Virus record (IMG/VR): IMGVR_UViG_3300046821_000076
Coordinates: 1-64,000 of that record
DNA length: 64,000 nucleotides
Source: a virus
Strand: one strand, 5' to 3'
Each line of letters begins with the position of its first letter. Within the stretch, counting starts at the first letter, position 1. Position numbers and translations under genes: made by a program. Under the pieces are notes generated by a model. It had not been told where the DNA came from. It saw nothing but the letters and a program-made list of their open reading frames with translations, and ran no database searches. Positions 3,553-14,411 of this stretch are shown one piece after another.

Positions 3553-5150
3553 TAGTTCAGCTTACCTATTTTAACCCTTAATTTATTACTAGCATCGTAG
3601 ATCGTAATACCAGTACCTCGTTGCTCAATACGAGCACCCCCTGCAGTGCCTGTAGTGAATGTACCAAAGTTACCTGTAATAGCACTTAACTCATTAACAT
3701 TCATTTTATCTACAGTAATGGAACCTGCACCTATACGATCTGCATTGATTATACCTGCAGTGATCTTAGCAGCATCAATGTTAGCGATCTTAGCGTTAGT
3801 GATAGCAGCATCAGCAATGTGAGCAGTACCAATAGTTGCATTAGCAATGATAGCTGAATTAATCCAAGTACCTGCAGGAAAATCAACACCATCAATATTA
3901 GTAGGTACAGTAGTGACTACAAAAGGTTTTACTGCATCTGTTGGTTTACCAATATAAAAAGTATCTGCATTAACACCAAAAGCTGATTTAACGACTCCAT
4001 TCTCTAATTCAGAGATTAAACCATATCCTGCAACTACTCCATTAAGGTCTACACTTACAGTACTCAATGCTTTAATGGATGACAGTCCTGCTTGGATTTC
4101 ATTAGTGATATCTAACTGTGCAATGTTGTCGTTAACAATAGCAAGCAATTCATCCGACTTACTTACCAATGCAGTATTTAAATTAGCATACGAAACATAA
4201 TCAGTAAGAATGGTAGCAATAGTTCCATCTACTTGAGCGCTGTACGTATTTAACGCTGTAGTGATGGCTTCATCAGTCCCCGCAATTGTACTGTAGTCTT
4301 GAAGGATGCCTGCTACAGCAGTCTCTGTGCTTGTTTTAATAGCAAGTACTTGTGTGGCTATAGCTTCTTGCCCTTCATAACGTAGTTGAGCTTCTGTTGT
4401 AATACCGTCTTCTAATTCCTGGAATAAACTGGTACGTATAGCAGCTTCCTCTGCAATTTTACCTATCTGCTCAGAAATTAAATCATTGAACGTAAGCGTT
4501 AATTGATCAAAGGTTTCACCATTCTGTTCTGCTAAAGCAATAGCATCTGCATATTGTTTTGCTTTAAGTGTTTCATGCGCTAAACGTAAATCACTTAAAC
4601 TAGTAGACGTACCACTAAGAGCTGCACCTAGATCACGTATTAACGGACTATCTGTTAATGCTCCGATAATATTACTAATATACTGATTACCTGTAGATAG
4701 GCTTTCAAGAACACTATCGGAAACATCAGCTACCAATTCACCTTTATACTCAGCACTTTTGATCTGATCGCTTAACTTTGTAATTTCTTTACGTAGCAAG
4801 TAATCCCAGTAAGATGCCTGAGCTAATATATTCCATCCAGTAAAATTTACTTCATCAGTATCCATAGTGAATTCATTTGAATCCATAGTGATATCTTGAA
4901 GCATCTGCTCATATCTCCGTACCCGTGTAAGTAACGCTTGGTACTGAGTATTTAGATCAGCTTCTGAATCCCTAACCTGGTCTAACAAAGCATTCGTATT
5001 GCTAGAATAACTAGCTAAGTGCATTTCCCAAGCAAGCATCAAATCTTGAGGTACATATATTGGTCTCAAAGTTTCTGCTAGTAATTCGGACGAAGTCTTA
5101 TTACTATTGTCACCCTCTTCTGATGGGTACTTTGAAGTGTAATCAGACAT
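3552..5150 (-). CDS. Tail fibre with coiled coil and J-like (DUF1983-type) C-terminus
   Basis: VDLNGVVAGYGL..SAFGVNADTF..KPFVV followed by IANATIGTAHIADAAITNAKI repeats. Confidence 0.7.
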   Translation of the reverse strand: MSDYTSKYPSEEGDNSNKTSSELLAETLRPIYVPQDLMLAWEMHLASYSSNTNALLDQVRDSEADLNTQYQALLTRVRRYEQMLQDITMDSNEFTMDTDEVNFTGWNILAQASYWDYLLRKEITKLSDQIKSAEYKGELVADVSDSVLESLSTGNQYISNIIGALTDSPLIRDLGAALSGTSTSLSDLRLAHETLKAKQYADAIALAEQNGETFDQLTLTFNDLISEQIGKIAEEAAIRTSLFQELEDGITTEAQLRYEGQEAIATQVLAIKTSTETAVAGILQDYSTIAGTDEAITTALNTYSAQVDGTIATILTDYVSYANLNTALVSKSDELLAIVNDNIAQLDITNEIQAGLSSIKALSTVSVDLNGVVAGYGLISELENGVVKSAFGVNADTFYIGKPTDAVKPFVVTTVPTNIDGVDFPAGTWINSAIIANATIGTAHIADAAITNAKIANIDAAKITAGIINADRIGAGSITVDKMNVNELSAITGNFGTFTTGTAGGARIEQRGTGITIYDASNKLRVKIGKLN

Positions 5151-9523: not shown

Positions 9524-10492
9524 ATGTATTCAAACCAAACTAACTTACCTACAGCTATAGCTGTATGGCTTGCACACGATACGTATGATAGAGCTGAAGC
9601 AGGCCTATCTGCTACAAGCTTACTTAAACCAATAAGACAGGTACTACTCTCTCAGCGTGTTCCTGAAGGTGAAGGTATTACTGACGTTAGTGGTTTAATT
9701 AAGTCACGTATTGGTACTGCAATCCATGATGCTATTGAACGTGCCTGGCTGAGTGATCGCTTAGAAGCTACTCTTAAAAGTCTAGGTGCTTCAGATAAAA
9801 CAGTATCAAGAGTTAAGATTAATCCTGAAACTATTGAAGGTCCTTGTTACCCTATCTATCTTGAGCTTAGAACAAGCAAAGATATTTTAGGTGTAAAGGT
9901 TACAGGTAAGTTTGACTTCATTGATAATGGCAAACTGATTGACTTTAAAACTACAAGTACCTTTGCATACACTTCAGGTAATAAAGATGAAGACTACATT
10001 ATGCAAGGTAGTATTTATCGTTGGCTTAATCCTGAAATCATTACAGATGAGTTCATGGATATTTGCTTCATCTTTACTGATTGGCAGAAGAACAGATATT
10101 TGAGTGCTCCTCAAAGCTACCCTTCAAGTCAGATTATCTCTCGCAGTTTTAAGCTGCATTCTGCAGCCTTTGTGCAGTCATACGTTGAAGAACGTGTTCG
10201 TACTTTAATTAAACTGCAGGACGTTCATGAAGTAGATTTACCCTTATGTACTGATAAAGACCTATGGCGTAAACCAGATACTTTTAAGTATTATAAGAAC
10301 CCCCAAAAACAAAGCAAATCAACTGCTAACTTTGACAACCTTAGTGATGCTAACAGACGCTTCTTAGATGATGGCGCTGTAGGCTTAGTTAAGACAGTTA
10401 AAGGAGGAGTTTCCGCGTGTCTGTACTGTAGCGCATTCACCGTATGTACTCAGAAAGACAGACTTATTGAGTCAGGTGAGTTAAAGATTTAA
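9524..10492 (+). CDS. PD-(D/E)xK (Cas4-like) nuclease, N4 gp42-like
   Basis: SATSLL, GTAIH, GKFD...DFKTT, QGSIYRWL, C-terminal CLYC....C; sits just before the primase as in N4. Confidence 0.8.
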   Translation: MYSNQTNLPTAIAVWLAHDTYDRAEAGLSATSLLKPIRQVLLSQRVPEGEGITDVSGLIKSRIGTAIHDAIERAWLSDRLEATLKSLGASDKTVSRVKINPETIEGPCYPIYLELRTSKDILGVKVTGKFDFIDNGKLIDFKTTSTFAYTSGNKDEDYIMQGSIYRWLNPEIITDEFMDICFIFTDWQKNRYLSAPQSYPSSQIISRSFKLHSAAFVQSYVEERVRTLIKLQDVHEVDLPLCTDKDLWRKPDTFKYYKNPQKQSKSTANFDNLSDANRRFLDDGAVGLVKTVKGGVSACLYCSAFTVCTQKDRLIESGELKI

Positions 10493-10525
10493 ATCCTTTA
10501 CTTACATATACCATGGTAAATACTT

Positions 10526-10742
10526 ATGAAAAGTTTTGATCAAATGCCCTATCATCCAATGACAGAGCAGATCGTAGACATCTTATGCGAGCGTTCTCAG
10601 AACAAACAGAGAATGTTCTTTCGCATTGCATGTCAATATTATTGGGGAGTACTCGCTTCCCAGATGCATACGAAGGTAGTAGGTTGGGGTAGCACTCCAA
10701 TTCCACTGAATATTTACGCATTAAACCTAGCAGTATCAGGGT
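10526..10742 (+). CDS. DNA primase-helicase (N4 gp43-like), exon 1
   Basis: Ends ...NIYALNLAVSG + T; the Walker A motif is cut by the intron. Confidence 0.88.
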
Positions 10743-11693
10743 AAACAACCATGCCCCTATAGGTAGTGATACCTATTAGCAAACCTCCCTAATTCGGTGA
10801 AACTCTGACCATTAAGTTGAAGACAATACCGAGCAAGGCATTAGCCGTGTGTAACGACTATCGAAAAGCAGCTTAGCTGAACTGAGTAGAGTAAGACCCA
10901 AGTGGGTTTGAAATGGGAGGATGCTTATTTACTTACCACAACGTTAGTGCTATATTTAAATCTAGCTATAACATTGAGGAAAGTGCAATGACAGTTTGGA
11001 AAGATATTTTAGGGTATGAAGGTTTATACCAAGTAAGTGATGAAGGTTCTGTAAAGGCACTAGCCAGATCAGTAACCAACAAGAACGGTAGACTACAACA
11101 GTATCCTGAAAGGGTTTTAAAAACGGATAAAAGTGTAATGAGTAATTCTACATACCATAGAGTTACTTTATGTAAGAACCACGTTACTTCTAGATTTTTA
11201 GTACATCGTTTAGTAGCAGAAGCTTTTATACCTAATCCGTTAAATAAACCAATGATTAACCACATAGATAATGATGCAGAGAATAATCAGGTGTCTAACA
11301 TAGAATGGGTAACTCATTCAGAGAATATGATACATGCCCAAAAACAGGGTAGATTATTTCACGCACAGTCTAAGGCAGGTAAGGTAGCAGGTGCTATAAG
11401 CACAGCTAATTTACATAAACTAGCTCAAGACAGCGTAGGCTTATTATTTAATTCCTGGCAAGTTATTGATCCAGACTTATCCTATAGAGCAGGTAAAGCA
11501 TACATACTTTGTAAGTGTGTTTGCGGTAAACAGGCTCAAATAGATTTTGCAAGATTACGTAGATTAGATGCTACGTCATGTAAGTCATGCGCTAAGAAGT
11601 AAATAAGTATAAGAGTTAGTCTGATCCCTGTAGAAATACAGGGCGGGTGCTTTAACGTACCGCATACGCATAACGAACGTATGGGACAATATG
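10743..11693 (+). mobile_element. Group I self-splicing intron (IA2-like), 951 nt, with homing endonuclease in L8
   Basis: P1 GGGU/GCCC with U-G at the splice site; P3 CCTCCC 10784/GGGAGG 10915; P AATTCGGTGAAA; Q AATACCGAGC; P7 GACTA 10856/TAGTC 11617; P7.1 and P7.2 hairpins; P8 10921-10934/11597-11610; P9 CCCTGTA-GAAA-TACAGGG; terminal G 11693. Splicing restores the frame. Confidence 0.92.
10988..11602 (+). CDS. Intron-encoded NUMOD4-HNH homing endonuclease
   Basis: WKDILGYEGLYQVSDEG (NUMOD4); VHRLVAEAFIPNP..INHIDND..NN.VSNIEW (HNH); GAGG RBS before ATG 10988. Confidence 0.92.
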   Translation: MTVWKDILGYEGLYQVSDEGSVKALARSVTNKNGRLQQYPERVLKTDKSVMSNSTYHRVTLCKNHVTSRFLVHRLVAEAFIPNPLNKPMINHIDNDAENNQVSNIEWVTHSENMIHAQKQGRLFHAQSKAGKVAGAISTANLHKLAQDSVGLLFNSWQVIDPDLSYRAGKAYILCKCVCGKQAQIDFARLRRLDATSCKSCAKK

Positions 11694-13618
11694 TCGGTAA
11701 AGGTTTCTCTACAGGGCTTATTGAATCAGAAGTTATTAATAAGTTTCGTGCTAACTTCATGGATAACACTTTCCATCTACAAGCAGAAACCAATATCAAT
11801 GCACTAGCTAAACATAAAGCTCTACATAAAGGCACAGACGTTACAGATGAAACTGAGCGCCTGATTAAAGAGTTTAATGCAGCAGGTTCGCTAATGTTCT
11901 CATTTGATGATGCAACTATGGCAGCAGTTAAACAGATGCGCCATAAGCTTATCATTGCAGGTTCAGGTGCGGTTAACTTGCAGGTAGATGAAGTAGGTAC
12001 AAAGCTTGTAAACCAAGAAGATGTACTAGCAGGTTTCTTAGAACTGTATGACACAGGTAAGATGAAAGATAAGCTCATTAAGAATGGGCAAGAAAATCAA
12101 CGTGTAGAACGTATTGAGGGACAGACTCCAGCAAACATGCTTCTATTTGGTACACCAAGTAAGGTAATGGATGGAGGTAAAACTCAAGCGTATCTCGAAG
12201 CTATGCTAGAGATGGGATATGCAAGACGTTGTCTATTTGGGTACTCAACCCATTTAGGAAAAGATACTACTTCTGATGCACAAACATTAGTGCAGTTACT
12301 TACTAATAGTAAGTCAGATGCAGTACTAAACAACATTGCTACTCATCTTGAACAGTTAGCTGATTATCCTAACCTGTCTAAAGAAATCACAATCCAAGAA
12401 GCTGAAGCAGTTTACTTAATGGAATATAAAATTAACTGTTCAGAACGAGCAGAGCATTTTAAAGACCATGAGTTTAGTCTTAAAGCTGAGATGGACCATC
12501 GCTACTTTAAAGTACTCAAACTAGCAGGTTGCTACGCATTCTTAGACTACAGTCCAGTTATCACTGTTGATCACTTGGATTACGCTATACGTATCGTAGA
12601 AGATTCAGGCGAAGACTTTAAACGTCTAATGACCCCTGAATACAACTATGAAAAGTTAGCAAAGTATTTAGCTGCTTTAAACCAACCAGTTACTCTACCT
12701 GATCTTGAGTATGCTCTACCTTACTTCCGTGGAAGCAGACAACAGAAAGAGTATTTGATTGAGTACGCTACTGCTTGGGGATATAAAAACAATGTTGTCA
12801 TTAAGAAATCTTTTGACAATAACATTATGTTCTTAGCTGCAGACAGCTTAAAGCAAACCAATATAGATGAGATGATTATGTCTATCTCTACTCGTCTGTC
12901 TGAAGGTTACGAAGCTAAACGCGTACCATTTGATCAGCTACACTTACTTGCTACAAACAATGAGTATCATTGGTGTAGTCACCACTTCCAAGGAGATATT
13001 CGTAGAGCTGAAAACGCATTACCTCTATTCAATATGATTGTTCTAGATATTGATGGGACAATGCCACTTGGCGTAGCTCAAGACTTACTTAAACAGTATC
13101 GAGCATTCTTCTATACAACGAAGTCTCATACTGAAGAAGTACATCGCTATCGTATTATCTTACCGATCAACTACGAAGTAGAAATGGATCGTGAAGAATA
13201 CAATGCGTGTATGGATGCAGTACTTCAAACCTTACCGTTTGAATGTGATCCAGCAACTAAAGATATTGCACGTAAGTGGATGTGTAACGAAGGAGAGTAC
13301 TTCTACCAAGAAGGCGAGCTATTCGATATCTTACCGTTCATTCCAAATACTTCTCGAAGTGATGAACGTCAGCAAGCATTTCAAAACCAATCAGACTTAG
13401 ACAATCTTGAGCGTTGGGTTCTAAACCATACAGGCGCAGGAAATCGTAACGATCAGATTTATAAGTATGCAATGGTACTTGCAGATGCAGGTAAATCATT
13501 AGAGCAGATTGGAGAGTTAGCACGTAACTTAAACAATAAGCTAAGTGATCGTCTTTCTGATGAAGAGATAATGAACACAGTACTCAAATCTGTAAGTAAT
13601 AAGATGAATCGAAAATAG
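11694..13618 (+). CDS. DNA primase-helicase (N4 gp43-like), exon 2
   Basis: Joined reading LAVSGFGKGFS; VDEVG Walker B; C-terminal primase-like LDID, YTTKSH, RYRIILP, GNRN. Spliced CDS is 2142 nt (713 aa). Confidence 0.9.
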
Positions 13619-13679: not shown

Positions 13680-14411
13680 ATGTTAGACCAACAAAATGAC
13701 TTTATGGTTTTAATTGGAGGAGAATCAGGTGCAGGTAAGACAACCTCATTGATGAATATCCGAGACCCTGAAGGTGTCTTATATCTTAATTGCGATGCAG
13801 GGAAACGCATCACTTTTAGACATAAGTTTAATACTGTAACAGTTACTCATCCTATGCAAGTACTTGAAGGTATCAAAGCAGCTAATGGTTCTGAAAAGAT
13901 TCATACAGTCATCATTGATACTTTATCGTTCTTGATGGAGATGTACGAAACTCAGATTGTATTACGTGCAGATGATACTCGATCAGCTTGGGGAGATTAC
14001 GCACAGTACCTCAAGACATTGATGCAAGAGTACATTGCAGCAAGCACTAAGAACATTATTATCTTATCTCACATTGCAGACTACATTGATGAGTCTGCAG
14101 GGACTAAGAAAGTTCAAGTACCTCTTAAAGGGGCTTCAGCTAAAGTAGGTGTAGAAGCTTACTTATCTGTAGTAGTGAACGCTAAGAAAGTACCTATTGT
14201 TGAACTTGAGAAATACCCTTCAGAGTATTTACATATTACGGAAGAAGAACGTATTCAAGGATTCAAACACGTATTCCAAACCAAGGTTACAGCTAAGACA
14301 ACTTCTGAGCGTATCCGTGGTCCAATTGGAATGTTTAAAGCAAATGAAGTATATATGGATAATGACGTACAGTTGTTATTGGATATTCTTCATGAGTACT
14401 ACGAAGCGTAA
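13680..14411 (+). CDS. AAA-domain ATPase (N4 gp44/Sak4-like)
   Basis: GESGAGKT Walker A; VIIDTLS Walker B; position between primase and SSB. Confidence 0.85.
   Translation: MLDQQNDFMVLIGGESGAGKTTSLMNIRDPEGVLYLNCDAGKRITFRHKFNTVTVTHPMQVLEGIKAANGSEKIHTVIIDTLSFLMEMYETQIVLRADDTRSAWGDYAQYLKTLMQEYIAASTKNIIILSHIADYIDESAGTKKVQVPLKGASAKVGVEAYLSVVVNAKKVPIVELEKYPSEYLHITEEERIQGFKHVFQTKVTAKTTSERIRGPIGMFKANEVYMDNDVQLLLDILHEYYEA

What the first reader, a model, noticed from the sequence alone, without database searches (positions are those of the whole stretch)
10743..11693. Group I intron with homing endonuclease inserted in the Walker A motif of the primase-helicase
Seen: all core pairings (P1 with U-G splice pair, P2, P3, P4-P6, P7, P7.1, P7.2, P8, P9, P9.1, P9.2), terminal G at 11693, and an HNH ORF looped out of P8 with its stop codon inside the P8 3' strand. 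Joining T10742 to T11694 gives GGG TTC GGT AAA GGT (SGFGKG), rebuilding the P-loop in a 713-aa protein. Unspliced RNA stops at once (TAA 10742-10744), so replication should depend on splicing. Known: phage group I introns are mostly described in td, nrdB, nrdD, DNA polymerase, terminase and lysin genes. I do not recall one in an N4-type primase; novelty is unverified. Automated annotation would call two broken genes.
Basis: partly seen in the sequence, partly recalled or inferred. Interest (0 to 1): 0.85.

Follow-up and report, generated by a model that had tools for sequence, protein, structure and literature searches.

The report
Mobile group I intron splitting phage primase
A self-splicing-type (group I) intron carrying its own DNA-cutting enzyme interrupts the ATP-binding-loop codons of an N4-like phage's helicase-primase gene; it is a real but ordinary kind of selfish element, and related phages in wastewater carry the same gene with the intron, with the intron minus its enzyme gene, or with no intron.

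Summary
Window 10743-11693 is a 951-nt group I intron (IA2-like, with P7.1/P7.2). A NUMOD4-HNH endonuclease gene (10988-11602) lies in its P8 loop. It sits inside the P-loop codons of an N4 gp43-like protein, which is an MCM-like AAA+ domain followed by a primase domain.

The junction T10742|T11694 is fixed to the nucleotide by natural uninterrupted alleles in metagenomes and by a 713-aa protein that is 97% identical. One metagenome allele, L017, carries the same intron without the HNH gene. That allele scores 57.2 bits on Rfam RF00028, above the gathering score of 50. The window itself scores only 28.1 and 11.6 bits in two halves.

Intron-bearing alleles carry a dense, almost entirely synonymous patch in exon 1 next to the intron. 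The patch varies in length between alleles, as co-conversion after homing would give.

Splicing itself was not shown. Novelty is low. Fouts 2013 already suggested an intron in the split gp43 homologue of Vibrio phages JA-1 and VchO139-I. This scan has also noted group I introns in primase-helicase P-loops of other phage groups. New here: the site lies 5 nt from JA-1's, the ribozyme is unrelated to JA-1's, and the HNH is JA-1's closest relative.

The parts
10526..10742 (+). Exon 1 of the gp43-like helicase-primase gene (72 codons plus the first base of codon 73). Its last base, U10742, is the 5' splice-site U.
   Evidence: ORF list; phrog_2135 positions 1-72 of 713, E 2e-22; gap-free alignment after joining.
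10693..10742 (+). Exon-1 patch next to the intron, linked to intron presence. It is densely and almost entirely synonymously different from uninterrupted alleles, so it is a candidate co-conversion tract.
   Evidence: L015 differs at 19 of 50 bases here, against 41 of 774 in the other exon sequence compared (Fisher p 7.7e-11). The window-type tract runs back at least 50 nt in the window and L017, 19 nt in one X5 contig and 10 nt in L018.
10743..11693 (+). Group I intron, 951 nt, ending in G11693 (omega-G).
   Evidence: The ORF-less allele L017 1753-2007 scores 57.2 bits on RF00028 against a gathering score of 50.
10739..10756 (+). P1: 10739-10743 pairs with 10752-10756, including the U10742.G10753 wobble at the splice site.
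   Evidence: MFE folds; helix list.
10757..10779 (+). P2 hairpin with a GUGA loop.
10784..10920 (+). Core domain closed by P3 (10784-10789 / 10915-10920). It contains P4 (10794-10799 / 10827-10832), P5 (10804-10823), P6 (10833-10850), the P7 5' strand (10856-10860), P7.1 (10869-10879) and P7.2 (10894-10909).
   Evidence: MFE folds. Local similarity to introns that pass or nearly pass RF00028: Aes002 polB, V6Aob polB, Vibrio 184E37.3a and Barba19A terminase. Compensatory differences in P3, P4 and P7.2 against Barba19A.
10921..10933 (+). P8 5' strand, which pairs with 11598-11610.
   Evidence: 13-bp helix in the ORF-deleted fold.
10988..11602 (+). HNH homing-endonuclease gene (204 aa; NUMOD4 + HNH_3, I-HmuI family) in the P8 loop.
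   Evidence: Pfam; phrog_59 E 2.8e-41; PDB 1U3E E 1.1e-12; 53% identity to the JA-1 primase-intron HNH, E 8e-79. The gene is intact in L018, with 24 nt and 7 aa differences, 16 of the 24 at third codon positions.
11598..11610 (+). P8 3' strand; it contains the HNH stop codon, 11600-11602.
11617..11621 (+). P7 3' strand (UAGUC), preceded by J8/7.
   Evidence: Complementary to 10856-10860; aligned to the AGAUAUAGUC consensus of RF00028.
11626..11683 (+). P9 (11626-11643, GAAA loop), P9.1 (11646-11661) and P9.2 (11663-11683).
11694..13618 (+). Exon 2 (last two bases of codon 73 through the stop codon). It encodes the rest of the AAA+ domain, the primase domain and PriCT-1.
   Evidence: phrog_2135 positions 73-712, E 1.3e-253; PriCT_1; structure model.

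Best explanation
Window 10743-11693 is a mobile group I intron of IA2-like architecture. It is inserted after the first base of the Phe codon in the S-G-F-G-K-G P-loop of the phage's gp43-like helicase-primase. The primary transcript must be spliced: the U10742.G10753 pair in P1 sets the 5' site and G11693 the 3' site. Splicing ligates ...GGGU to UCGG... and yields the 713-aa enzyme. Unspliced RNA terminates at once at the TAA. The intron carries an I-HmuI-family NUMOD4-HNH endonuclease gene in its P8 loop. That enzyme is inferred to nick or cut uninterrupted alleles near the P-loop codons in mixed infections, so that repair copies the intron together with a variable stretch of upstream exon. 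Shown: the anatomy, the exact junction, the existence of the empty, ORF-less and full alleles, and the linked exon patch. Inferred: self-splicing, endonuclease activity and its target, and the dependence of replication on splicing.
For: (1) Junction. Uninterrupted DNA alleles in wastewater runs X5, X7 and X13 read straight from exon 1 into 11694 or 11696, and one is base-for-base the predicted ligation ...GGGT|TCGG.... Metagenome loci L015 and L016 have an uninterrupted 2139-nt gene. P0001 is 713 aa, 97% identical and sits in a cluster of 365 member sequences. Shifting the junction by one base either way breaks both the U(-1) and terminal-G rules and no longer matches these alleles.
(2) Ribozyme. 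L017 carries the same intron without the ORF (295 nt). It differs from the window at 5 of 193 bases in the 5' core and 2 of 96 in the 3' part, and it scores 57.2 bits, E 6.2e-14, on RF00028. The window's core is similar to introns that pass RF00028: Aes002 and V6Aob polB (E about 1e-15) and Vibrio 184E37.3a (E 2.8e-10). Barba19A, at 48.9 bits, just misses the gathering score.
(3) Fold. All expected helices appear in unconstrained MFE folds. The 5' half has z -2.58, with 2 of 200 shuffles folding as well.
(4) Variation. Of 11 core substitutions among three alleles, 6 are unpaired, 4 keep their pair and 1 breaks a pair in distal P8.
(5) Mobility signature. L018 has 0 of 193 differences in the 5' core against 33 of 557 in the flanking exons (p 5.8e-5). 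Window-type exon tracts of at least 50, 19 and 10 nt are linked to intron presence. Intron depth is below exon depth in the same runs: 10 against 25 in X5 and about 12 against 42 in X7.
(6) The HNH gene is under purifying selection.
Against: No RNA evidence of splicing was obtained. The only joint seen in an RNA run (X15, 10701 to 11695) is most simply the uninterrupted DNA allele: uninterrupted alleles exist as DNA in X5 and X7 and diverge from the window at the same point (10701), though the letters between the two sides of the X15 joint were not reported. It therefore shows nothing about splicing. The window itself fails RF00028 at the gathering score. Even the ORF-less allele was missed in gathering mode with fast filters and was found only in E-value mode. 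P1 is short (4 bp plus one A-U) and P10 is weak (3 bp, by eye). P7 was checked only for complementarity. The 3' part alone folds only modestly better than shuffles (z -1.93). The co-conversion reading rests on Logan contigs and five metagenome loci, and chimeric assembly of mixed strains cannot be wholly excluded.
Confidence: 0.93

Rival explanations
1. The intron is real but no longer splices efficiently in this genome (a decaying element), and the phage lineage is defective or relies on a helper.
For: Splicing was not demonstrated. P1 and P10 are short. The window scores below the RF00028 gathering score.
Against: The core differs from the ORF-less allele, which passes RF00028, at only 7 positions, and none of these is in P3-P7 apart from one unpaired base in P6. 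The 5' core is identical in a strain whose exons are 6% diverged. The same allele type reaches substantial depth in several independent runs. The genome record is estimated 93% complete.
Confidence: 0.04
2. There is no splicing. A free-standing HNH gene has landed in the gene, and the primase is made as two polypeptides.
For: Public annotation of JA-1 treats the homologous arrangement as three genes. An ATG at 11681 opens a 645-aa ORF.
Against: A complete ribozyme core flanks the ORF. An ORF-less allele still carries the 295-nt insert. By eye, no Shine-Dalgarno sequence precedes ATG 11681. The break would cut the invariant P-loop between G72 and G74.
Confidence: 0.02
3. The insert is an intein or a group II intron.
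For: Inteins also favour P-loops; JA-1 has one in its terminase (PMC3670811).
Against: The insert starts with an in-frame stop codon. Pfam hits at E<=0.01 were NUMOD4, HNH_3 and a below-cut-off Cas_Csy1 match, with no reverse transcriptase and no Hint domain. The Rfam matches are to RF00028 only.
Confidence: 0.005

Closest known systems
Split gp43-homologue (primase) locus of Vibrio cholerae N4-like phages JA-1, VCO139 (VchO139-I) and JSF3 (Pacinivirus, Schitoviridae)
   Same: Same gene, same P-loop and same layout: a short exon-1 ORF, an HNH gene, then the rest of the primase. Its HNH is by far the closest relative of the window's enzyme among 2445 phage records with a match: 52.9% over the full length and 222 bits, against 126 bits for the next best. 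Its flanks also match RF00028 below the gathering score, at 33.6 and 23.8 bits. Fouts 2013 suggested an intron there.
   Different: The insertion site is 5 nt downstream: after the Gly codon (GGT|AAA, L001 3672|4720) rather than after the first base of the Phe/Tyr codon. The ribozyme is not specifically related. Only a 10-nt universal P7 segment matches (E 0.48), whereas the window's core matches introns in unrelated genes at about E 1e-15. JA-1's intron also has a large extra insert in the P5 region.
ORF-less phage group I introns: Aeromonas phage Aes002 polB, Vibrio phage V6Aob polB, Vibrio phage 184E37.3a, Rheinheimera phage Barba19A terminase
   Same: These are the closest ribozyme cores: 74-79% identity over 71-112 nt, with shared P7, J7/7.1, P7.1 and P7.2 sequence. 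Three pass RF00028 at 70.3-73.4 bits, and Barba19A scores 48.9. By my reading of the sequence, the Barba19A intron also lies in Walker A codons, of the terminase.
   Different: They sit in other host genes and other phage groups, and they have no ORF in P8.
SPO1 DNA-polymerase intron with I-HmuI (PDB 1U3E)
   Same: A group I intron in an essential phage replication gene that encodes a NUMOD4/HNH enzyme. The window's HNH matches 1U3E at E 1.1e-12 over residues 4-150.
   Different: Different host gene and phage. The C-terminal DNA-binding part is not shared. That I-HmuI is a nicking enzyme is recalled from memory and was not tested here.
T4 td, nrdB and nrdD introns and Twort orf142 introns (subgroup IA2)
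   Same: The general architecture, with P7.1/P7.2 between P7 and the P3 3' strand and an ORF in a peripheral loop. The definition of the subgroup is recalled from memory.
   Different: I made no direct sequence comparison with these introns. T4 introns encode GIY-YIG or other enzymes (recalled).

Membership tests
Group I intron (Rfam RF00028) | Match to the covariance model at or above the curated gathering score (50 bits). | tested here: met
   Met through the natural ORF-less allele of the same intron: L017 1753-2007, 57.2 bits, E 6.2e-14. The window itself is split by the ORF and scores 28.1 and 11.6 bits. Nothing was found at gathering threshold.
Group I intron (Rfam RF00028) | U.G wobble pair in P1 at the 5' splice site, and a terminal G at the 3' end. 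| tested here: met
   U10742.G10753 appears in the MFE folds, and G11693 is the last intron base. Both are conserved in L017.
Group I intron (Rfam RF00028) | P3-P7 pseudoknot core with P4-P6 and P8. | tested here: met
   The helices are listed with coordinates. P7 is 5 complementary bp. Compensatory differences against Barba19A occur in P3, P4 and P7.2, although that MAFFT alignment is imprecise.
Group I intron (Rfam RF00028) | Precise removal restores the host reading frame. | tested here: met
   Joined frame of 713 aa. Natural uninterrupted alleles have the same junction.
Group I intron (Rfam RF00028) | Guanosine-dependent self-splicing. | not testable with these tools
   No spliced RNA could be distinguished from uninterrupted DNA alleles.
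Subgroup IA2 | P7.1 and P7.2 between P7 and the 3' strand of P3 (definition recalled from memory). | tested here: inconclusive
   Two hairpins, 10869-10879 and 10894-10909, are predicted there and are conserved in related introns. No subgroup-specific model was available.
HNH homing endonuclease, I-HmuI type | NUMOD4 and HNH_3 domains above the Pfam cut-offs. | tested here: met
   38.5 bits against a cut-off of 23.4, and 34.7 against 24.8; 1U3E at E 1.1e-12.
HNH homing endonuclease, I-HmuI type | Site-specific nicking or cleavage of the intron-less allele, driving homing. | not testable with these tools
   Only indirect evidence: exon tracts of variable length linked to the intron, and coexisting allele states.
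AAA+ (MCM-like) P-loop ATPase | AAA+ fold. | tested here: met
   Model residues 10-387 against Mcm5 365-694: Z 18.2, rmsd 4.3 A, 294 residues aligned. Foldseek E 3.2e-6 to 6.8e-6. Model pLDDT 83.9.
AAA+ (MCM-like) P-loop ATPase | Walker A motif [AG]xxxxGK[ST]. | tested here: inconclusive
   The motif reads A-V-S-G-F-G-K-G, so the final position is Gly rather than Ser/Thr. S71, G72, G74, K75 and G76 are invariant in 31 homologues, and the motif lies between strand 64-68 and helix 77-86. pLDDT is below 50 for residues 71-74.
AAA+ (MCM-like) P-loop ATPase | Walker B motif (hydrophobic strand followed by D-E). | tested here: met
   Strand 166-170 is followed by invariant D171 and E172.

The most novel reading that the evidence does not exclude
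A lineage of HNH endonucleases specific for the primase P-loop has become associated with two unrelated group I ribozymes that sit 5 nt apart in the same codons. One is in the window's phage and the other in the JA-1 group. On this reading the endonuclease gene, not the ribozyme, carries the target specificity and moves between intron scaffolds. The window's phage population also shows the whole homing cycle at one site: an empty site, an intron with the endonuclease gene and an intron without it, with co-conversion tracts of graded length.
Probability: 0.5. Interest if true: 0.55.

Novelty: new member of a known kind. Interest (0 to 1): 0.38.

Why it matters
For annotation: gene callers split this essential gene into a 72-aa 'hypothetical protein', an HNH gene and a truncated primase, as in the public JA-1 record. 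One PHROG family of unknown function (phrog_27540, 80 positions) may consist of such exon-1 fragments; exon 1 matches it over its full length, but I did not inspect the family's members.

For mobile-element biology: the locus offers a natural series from uncultured phage populations. It includes an empty allele, an intron-only allele and an intron-plus-endonuclease allele, with linked exon tracts of 10, 19 and at least 50 nt. It also offers a comparison with a second intron 5 nt away that shares the endonuclease lineage but not the ribozyme. That comparison bears on how endonuclease genes and ribozymes become associated.

It does not change what is known about group I introns as such.

Tried and rejected
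Megablast of 10400-12100 against phages found no match.

blastn of the 3' 98 nt gave only 4 records at E about 0.9, which is uninformative.

Rfam at gathering threshold gave nothing on the whole window or on L001 and L004. On L017, L018, L015 and L016 it found only a second, different intron in L017. The genome search with RF00028 on the window's own genome gave 0 matches at E<=1, with 6 candidates scored.

The IMG/VR scan with exon 2 returned only 7 distant loci (49-53% identity), all uninterrupted, so no orthologous introns came from there.

A PDB sequence search with an intact homologue gave only an irrelevant hit at E 0.51. NCBIfam gave nothing. Pfam gave only a weak DUF3987 hit at E 0.13. 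The domain assignment therefore rests on the structure model.

RNA evidence: X13 is only guessed to be RNA, and X15 is an RNA library. Both contain contigs of the uninterrupted allele type. The X15 joint 10701->11695 and the lower intron depth cannot be read as splicing, because uninterrupted DNA alleles coexist in the DNA runs. Parts without cover in X15 (11104-11640) say nothing.

I considered whether this ribozyme lineage hops between Walker A sites. The lead was scan note e1-6085906 together with Barba19A. Barba19A's intron does lie in terminase Walker A codons, but at a different offset. The related introns in Klebsiella phage RCIP0089 and the Edwardsiella phage split the terminase at a site that does not look like a P-loop. 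I left this as a lead only.

I considered placing JA-1's 5' splice site at the same GGGT as in the window. I rejected it because no 3' site then restores the G-K-G motif or ends in G.

Covariation on the MAFFT alignment A1 is only illustrative, because the alignment is imprecise. I did not build a covariance model of my own.

Literature searches: 'N4-like' + 'group I intron' + 'primase' gave 7 papers, none describing this intron by its listing. 'Schitoviridae' + 'intron' gave 4 papers. 'group I intron' + 'primase gene' + 'phage' gave 3 papers.
Full report
WHAT IS THERE. The window is 64 kb of a 72,334-base IMG/VR virus record estimated 93% complete. The locus has the gene order of the N4-like replication module: an exonuclease (phrog_2139), a primase and a Sak4-like protein. 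The nearest cultured relatives of the primase are Acinetobacter N4-like phages, at 57% amino-acid identity.

Three ORFs occupy the locus:
- 10526-10744, 72 aa, ending in TAA at 10742-10744
- 10913-11602, 229 aa
- 11681-13618, 645 aa

The PHROG 'DNA primase' profile phrog_2135 (713 positions) matches the first ORF at positions 1-72 and the third ORF at positions 73-712. One gene is therefore interrupted between profile positions 72 and 73. The middle ORF is a NUMOD4 + HNH_3 endonuclease, with both domains above the Pfam cut-offs. It is related to I-HmuI (PDB 1U3E, E 1.1e-12).

THE JUNCTION. Joining 10526-10742 to 11694-13618 gives an open 713-aa frame reading ...LNLAVSGFGKGFSTG.... It aligns without a gap to nACB1 (...LSPSGTGKGYSTG...) and phiA41.

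The strongest evidence comes from natural alleles:
- A protein of exactly 713 aa, 97% identical, represents a cluster of 365 sequences (P0001).
- Metagenome loci L015 and L016 carry the uninterrupted 2139-nt gene.
- Contigs in the wastewater DNA runs X5 and X7, and in run X13 (labelled metagenomic RNA-Seq, so only guessed to be RNA), run from exon 1 directly into 11694 or 11696. One of them is base-for-base the predicted ligation product around the junction.

Moving the junction one base either way no longer matches these alleles. It also violates the rules of U at -1 and a terminal G. All 7 of 7 more distant IMG/VR relatives are uninterrupted as well.

THE RIBOZYME. Rfam finds nothing in the window at the gathering score, and a whole-genome search finds nothing. 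With relaxed filters, RF00028 matches in two pieces: 11435-11643 (28.1 bits, E 6.7e-5, covering P8, J8/7, P7' and P9) and 10737-10921 (11.6 bits, E 5.7). The 663-nt ORF insert in P8 explains the split.

Metagenome locus L017 carries the same intron at the same site without the ORF. It is 295 nt long and differs from the window at 5 of 193 bases in the 5' core and 2 of 96 in the 3' part. It scores 57.2 bits, E 6.2e-14, above the curated 50 bits, although the fast-filter gathering run missed it.

The window's 5' core is also locally similar to ORF-less introns that pass RF00028: Aes002 polB (73.3 bits), V6Aob polB (70.3 bits) and Vibrio 184E37.3a (73.4 bits). It is similar too to the Barba19A terminase intron, which scores 48.9 bits.

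Unconstrained MFE folds of the 5' half (z -2.58; 2 of 200 shuffles as good) and of an ORF-deleted construct return these helices (coordinates):
- P1: 10739-10743 / 10752-10756, with U10742.G10753
- P2: 10757-10779, GUGA loop
- P3: 10784-10789 / 10915-10920
- P4-P6: 10794-10850
- P7.1: 10869-10879
- P7.2: 10894-10909
- P8: a 13-bp helix, 10921-10933 / 11598-11610
- P9: 11626-11643, GAAA loop
- P9.1 and P9.2: 11646-11683

P7 (10856-10860 / 11617-11621) is a pseudoknot and was checked only for complementarity. The 3' part alone is less distinctive (z -1.93).

Among the three alleles, 11 core substitutions were mapped: 6 are unpaired, 4 preserve pairing by a wobble-to-Watson-Crick change or the reverse, and 1 breaks a pair in distal P8 of the ORF-less allele.

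THE ENDONUCLEASE GENE. The listed ORF starts at ATG 10913, which lies inside the 3' strand of P3. The JA-1 homologue aligns from the window's ATG 10988, which is preceded by GAGGA. I therefore take 10988-11602 (204 aa) as the gene. In L018 the gene is intact, with 24 nucleotide and only 7 amino-acid differences, 16 of the 24 at third codon positions. This points to purifying selection.

SIGNS OF MOBILITY. Three allele states coexist in closely related phages whose exons are 94-97% identical:
- empty: L015, L016, P0001 and contigs in X5, X7 and X13
- intron only: L017
- intron plus HNH: the window, L018 and contigs in X5, X7 and X13

In runs X5 and X7, intron depth is well below exon depth (10 against 25, and about 12 against 42). 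Both forms are therefore present in one sample.

In L018 the intron's 5' core is identical to the window's (0 of 193 differences), while the flanking exons differ at 33 of 557 positions (p 5.8e-5).

Directly upstream of the intron, the window differs from the empty allele L015 at 19 of 50 bases (10693-10742). In the rest of the compared exon sequence it differs at 41 of 774 bases (p 7.7e-11). All but one of these differences are synonymous.

This window-type tract occurs only in intron-bearing alleles, and its length varies. It runs at least 50 nt in the window and L017, 19 nt in an X5 contig (variant letters up to 10723) and 10 nt in L018. No comparable patch lies downstream.

I read this as co-conversion of donor exon sequence during homing, with a polarity that fits a nicking HNH enzyme. 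The nicking property is recalled from memory, and the mechanism here is inference. The caveat is that these are assembled contigs from mixed populations.

THE HOST PROTEIN. Pfam recognises only PriCT-1 at the C-terminus, plus a weak DUF3987 hit in a homologue (E 0.13). An AlphaFold2 model of the uninterrupted allele (31-sequence alignment, pLDDT 83.9) matches MCM subunits over residues 10-387. The figures are Foldseek E 3.2e-6 and VIA-align Z 18.2, rmsd 4.3 A, 294 residues aligned to Mcm5 365-694.

The interrupted motif lies between strand 64-68 and helix 77-86. S71, G72, G74, K75 and G76 are invariant in 31 homologues, and an invariant D171-E172 follows strand 166-170. 'P-loop of a helicase-primase' is thus supported. 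The motif ends GKG rather than GK[ST], and the loop itself is modelled with low confidence.

COMPARISON WITH WHAT IS KNOWN. In the INPHARED phage collection, the N-terminal 150 aa of an intact homologue match 468 records. In 461 of them one place covers at least 80% of the query, and there are 474 places in all. At most 7 records are therefore split in this region.

The one split record listed is Vibrio phage JSF3. JA-1 shows the same layout in its annotation: an 80-aa 'hypothetical protein', an HNH gene and then the primase. VCO139 carries the same HNH gene at the corresponding position; I did not open its annotation.

Fouts et al. 2013 (PMC3670811, passages read) noted that HNH genes split the gp24, DNAP and gp43 homologues of these phages and suggested introns. 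No structure or splicing is mentioned in the passages I saw.

By my reading, JA-1's junction is GGT|AAA (L001 3672|4720). This gives ...SGYGKGHAT... in an open frame, 5 nt downstream of the window's site. JA-1's flanks match RF00028 weakly, at 33.6 and 23.8 bits.

The two HNH proteins are each other's closest relatives by a wide margin (53% identity, E 8e-79). Among 2445 phage records with a match, JA-1's group scores 222 bits and the next best 126 bits. The ribozymes, by contrast, share only a 10-nt universal segment (E 0.48), while the window's core matches introns in polB and terminase genes at about E 1e-15. This suggests separate histories for the endonuclease gene and the ribozyme.

Group I introns in phage primase genes are also reported for crAss-like Delta-group phages (PMC7886860, passage read). 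Earlier notes of this scan, which are AI notes I have not checked, list HNH-bearing group I introns in the Walker A codons of primase-helicase genes in several other phage groups. All were judged ordinary.

VERDICT. It is a new member of a well-known kind, at a site 5 nt from one already suspected in print. Interest is moderate to low for the element itself. It is somewhat higher for the population series of allele states and for the mismatch between the endonuclease and ribozyme histories. Splicing and endonuclease activity remain untested.

Noticed in passing
L017 4166-4462 (corresponds to window 13801|13802, inside the Sak4-like gene 13680-14411): The related metagenome phage L017 carries a second, ORF-less group I intron (RF00028 79.8 bits at L017 4157-4413) in the Sak4-like ssDNA-annealing gene, within the codon of G41. 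The window lacks it. Its core looks more like the JA-1 primase-intron type than the window's intron, but that is by eye only.
   Followed up: partly
window 10526-10742 + 11694-12850 (protein residues about 10-387): The N-terminal two fifths to half of the N4 gp43-like 'DNA primase' is an MCM-like AAA+ module (Z 18.2 to Mcm5) placed upstream of the primase and PriCT-1 part. Pfam and NCBIfam assign no domain to it. The family may be better described as a helicase-primase.
   Followed up: partly
L001 3451-3693 (JA-1 gp57) and PHROG phrog_27540: JA-1's 80-aa 'hypothetical protein' gp57 is exon 1 of the primase, run on into the intron. The window's exon 1 matches phrog_27540 ('unknown function', 80 positions) over its full length at E 7.1e-13. 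That family is therefore probably made of exon-1 fragments.
   Followed up: partly
L001 about 3786-3801: Inside the JA-1 intron there is a short stretch (GGTATGGTAAAAAG) that resembles the ligated exon junction of the same gene (GGGTATGGT|AAAGGT). Seen by eye only; it may be chance.
   Followed up: no
L004 1352-1800 (Rheinheimera phage Barba19A): The terminase large-subunit gene appears to be split in its Walker A codons (...GGGA|GGGKT...) by an unannotated ORF-less group I intron (RF00028 48.9 bits, just under the gathering score). This is the closest ribozyme relative of the window's intron.
   Followed up: partly
L020 (Klebsiella phage RCIP0089, 43-1852) and L021 (Edwardsiella phage DT115P1, 630-2481): The terminase large-subunit genes of these Autographiviridae-type phages are annotated in two pieces with a 201-aa ORF between them. 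The gap begins with sequence similar to the window's intron core. This is probably another unannotated intron carrying an ORF.
   Followed up: no
L001 1-1247 (JA-1 gp62 and gp61): The JA-1 DNA polymerase is also annotated in pieces next to an HNH gene, as Fouts 2013 noted. I did not examine it.
   Followed up: no
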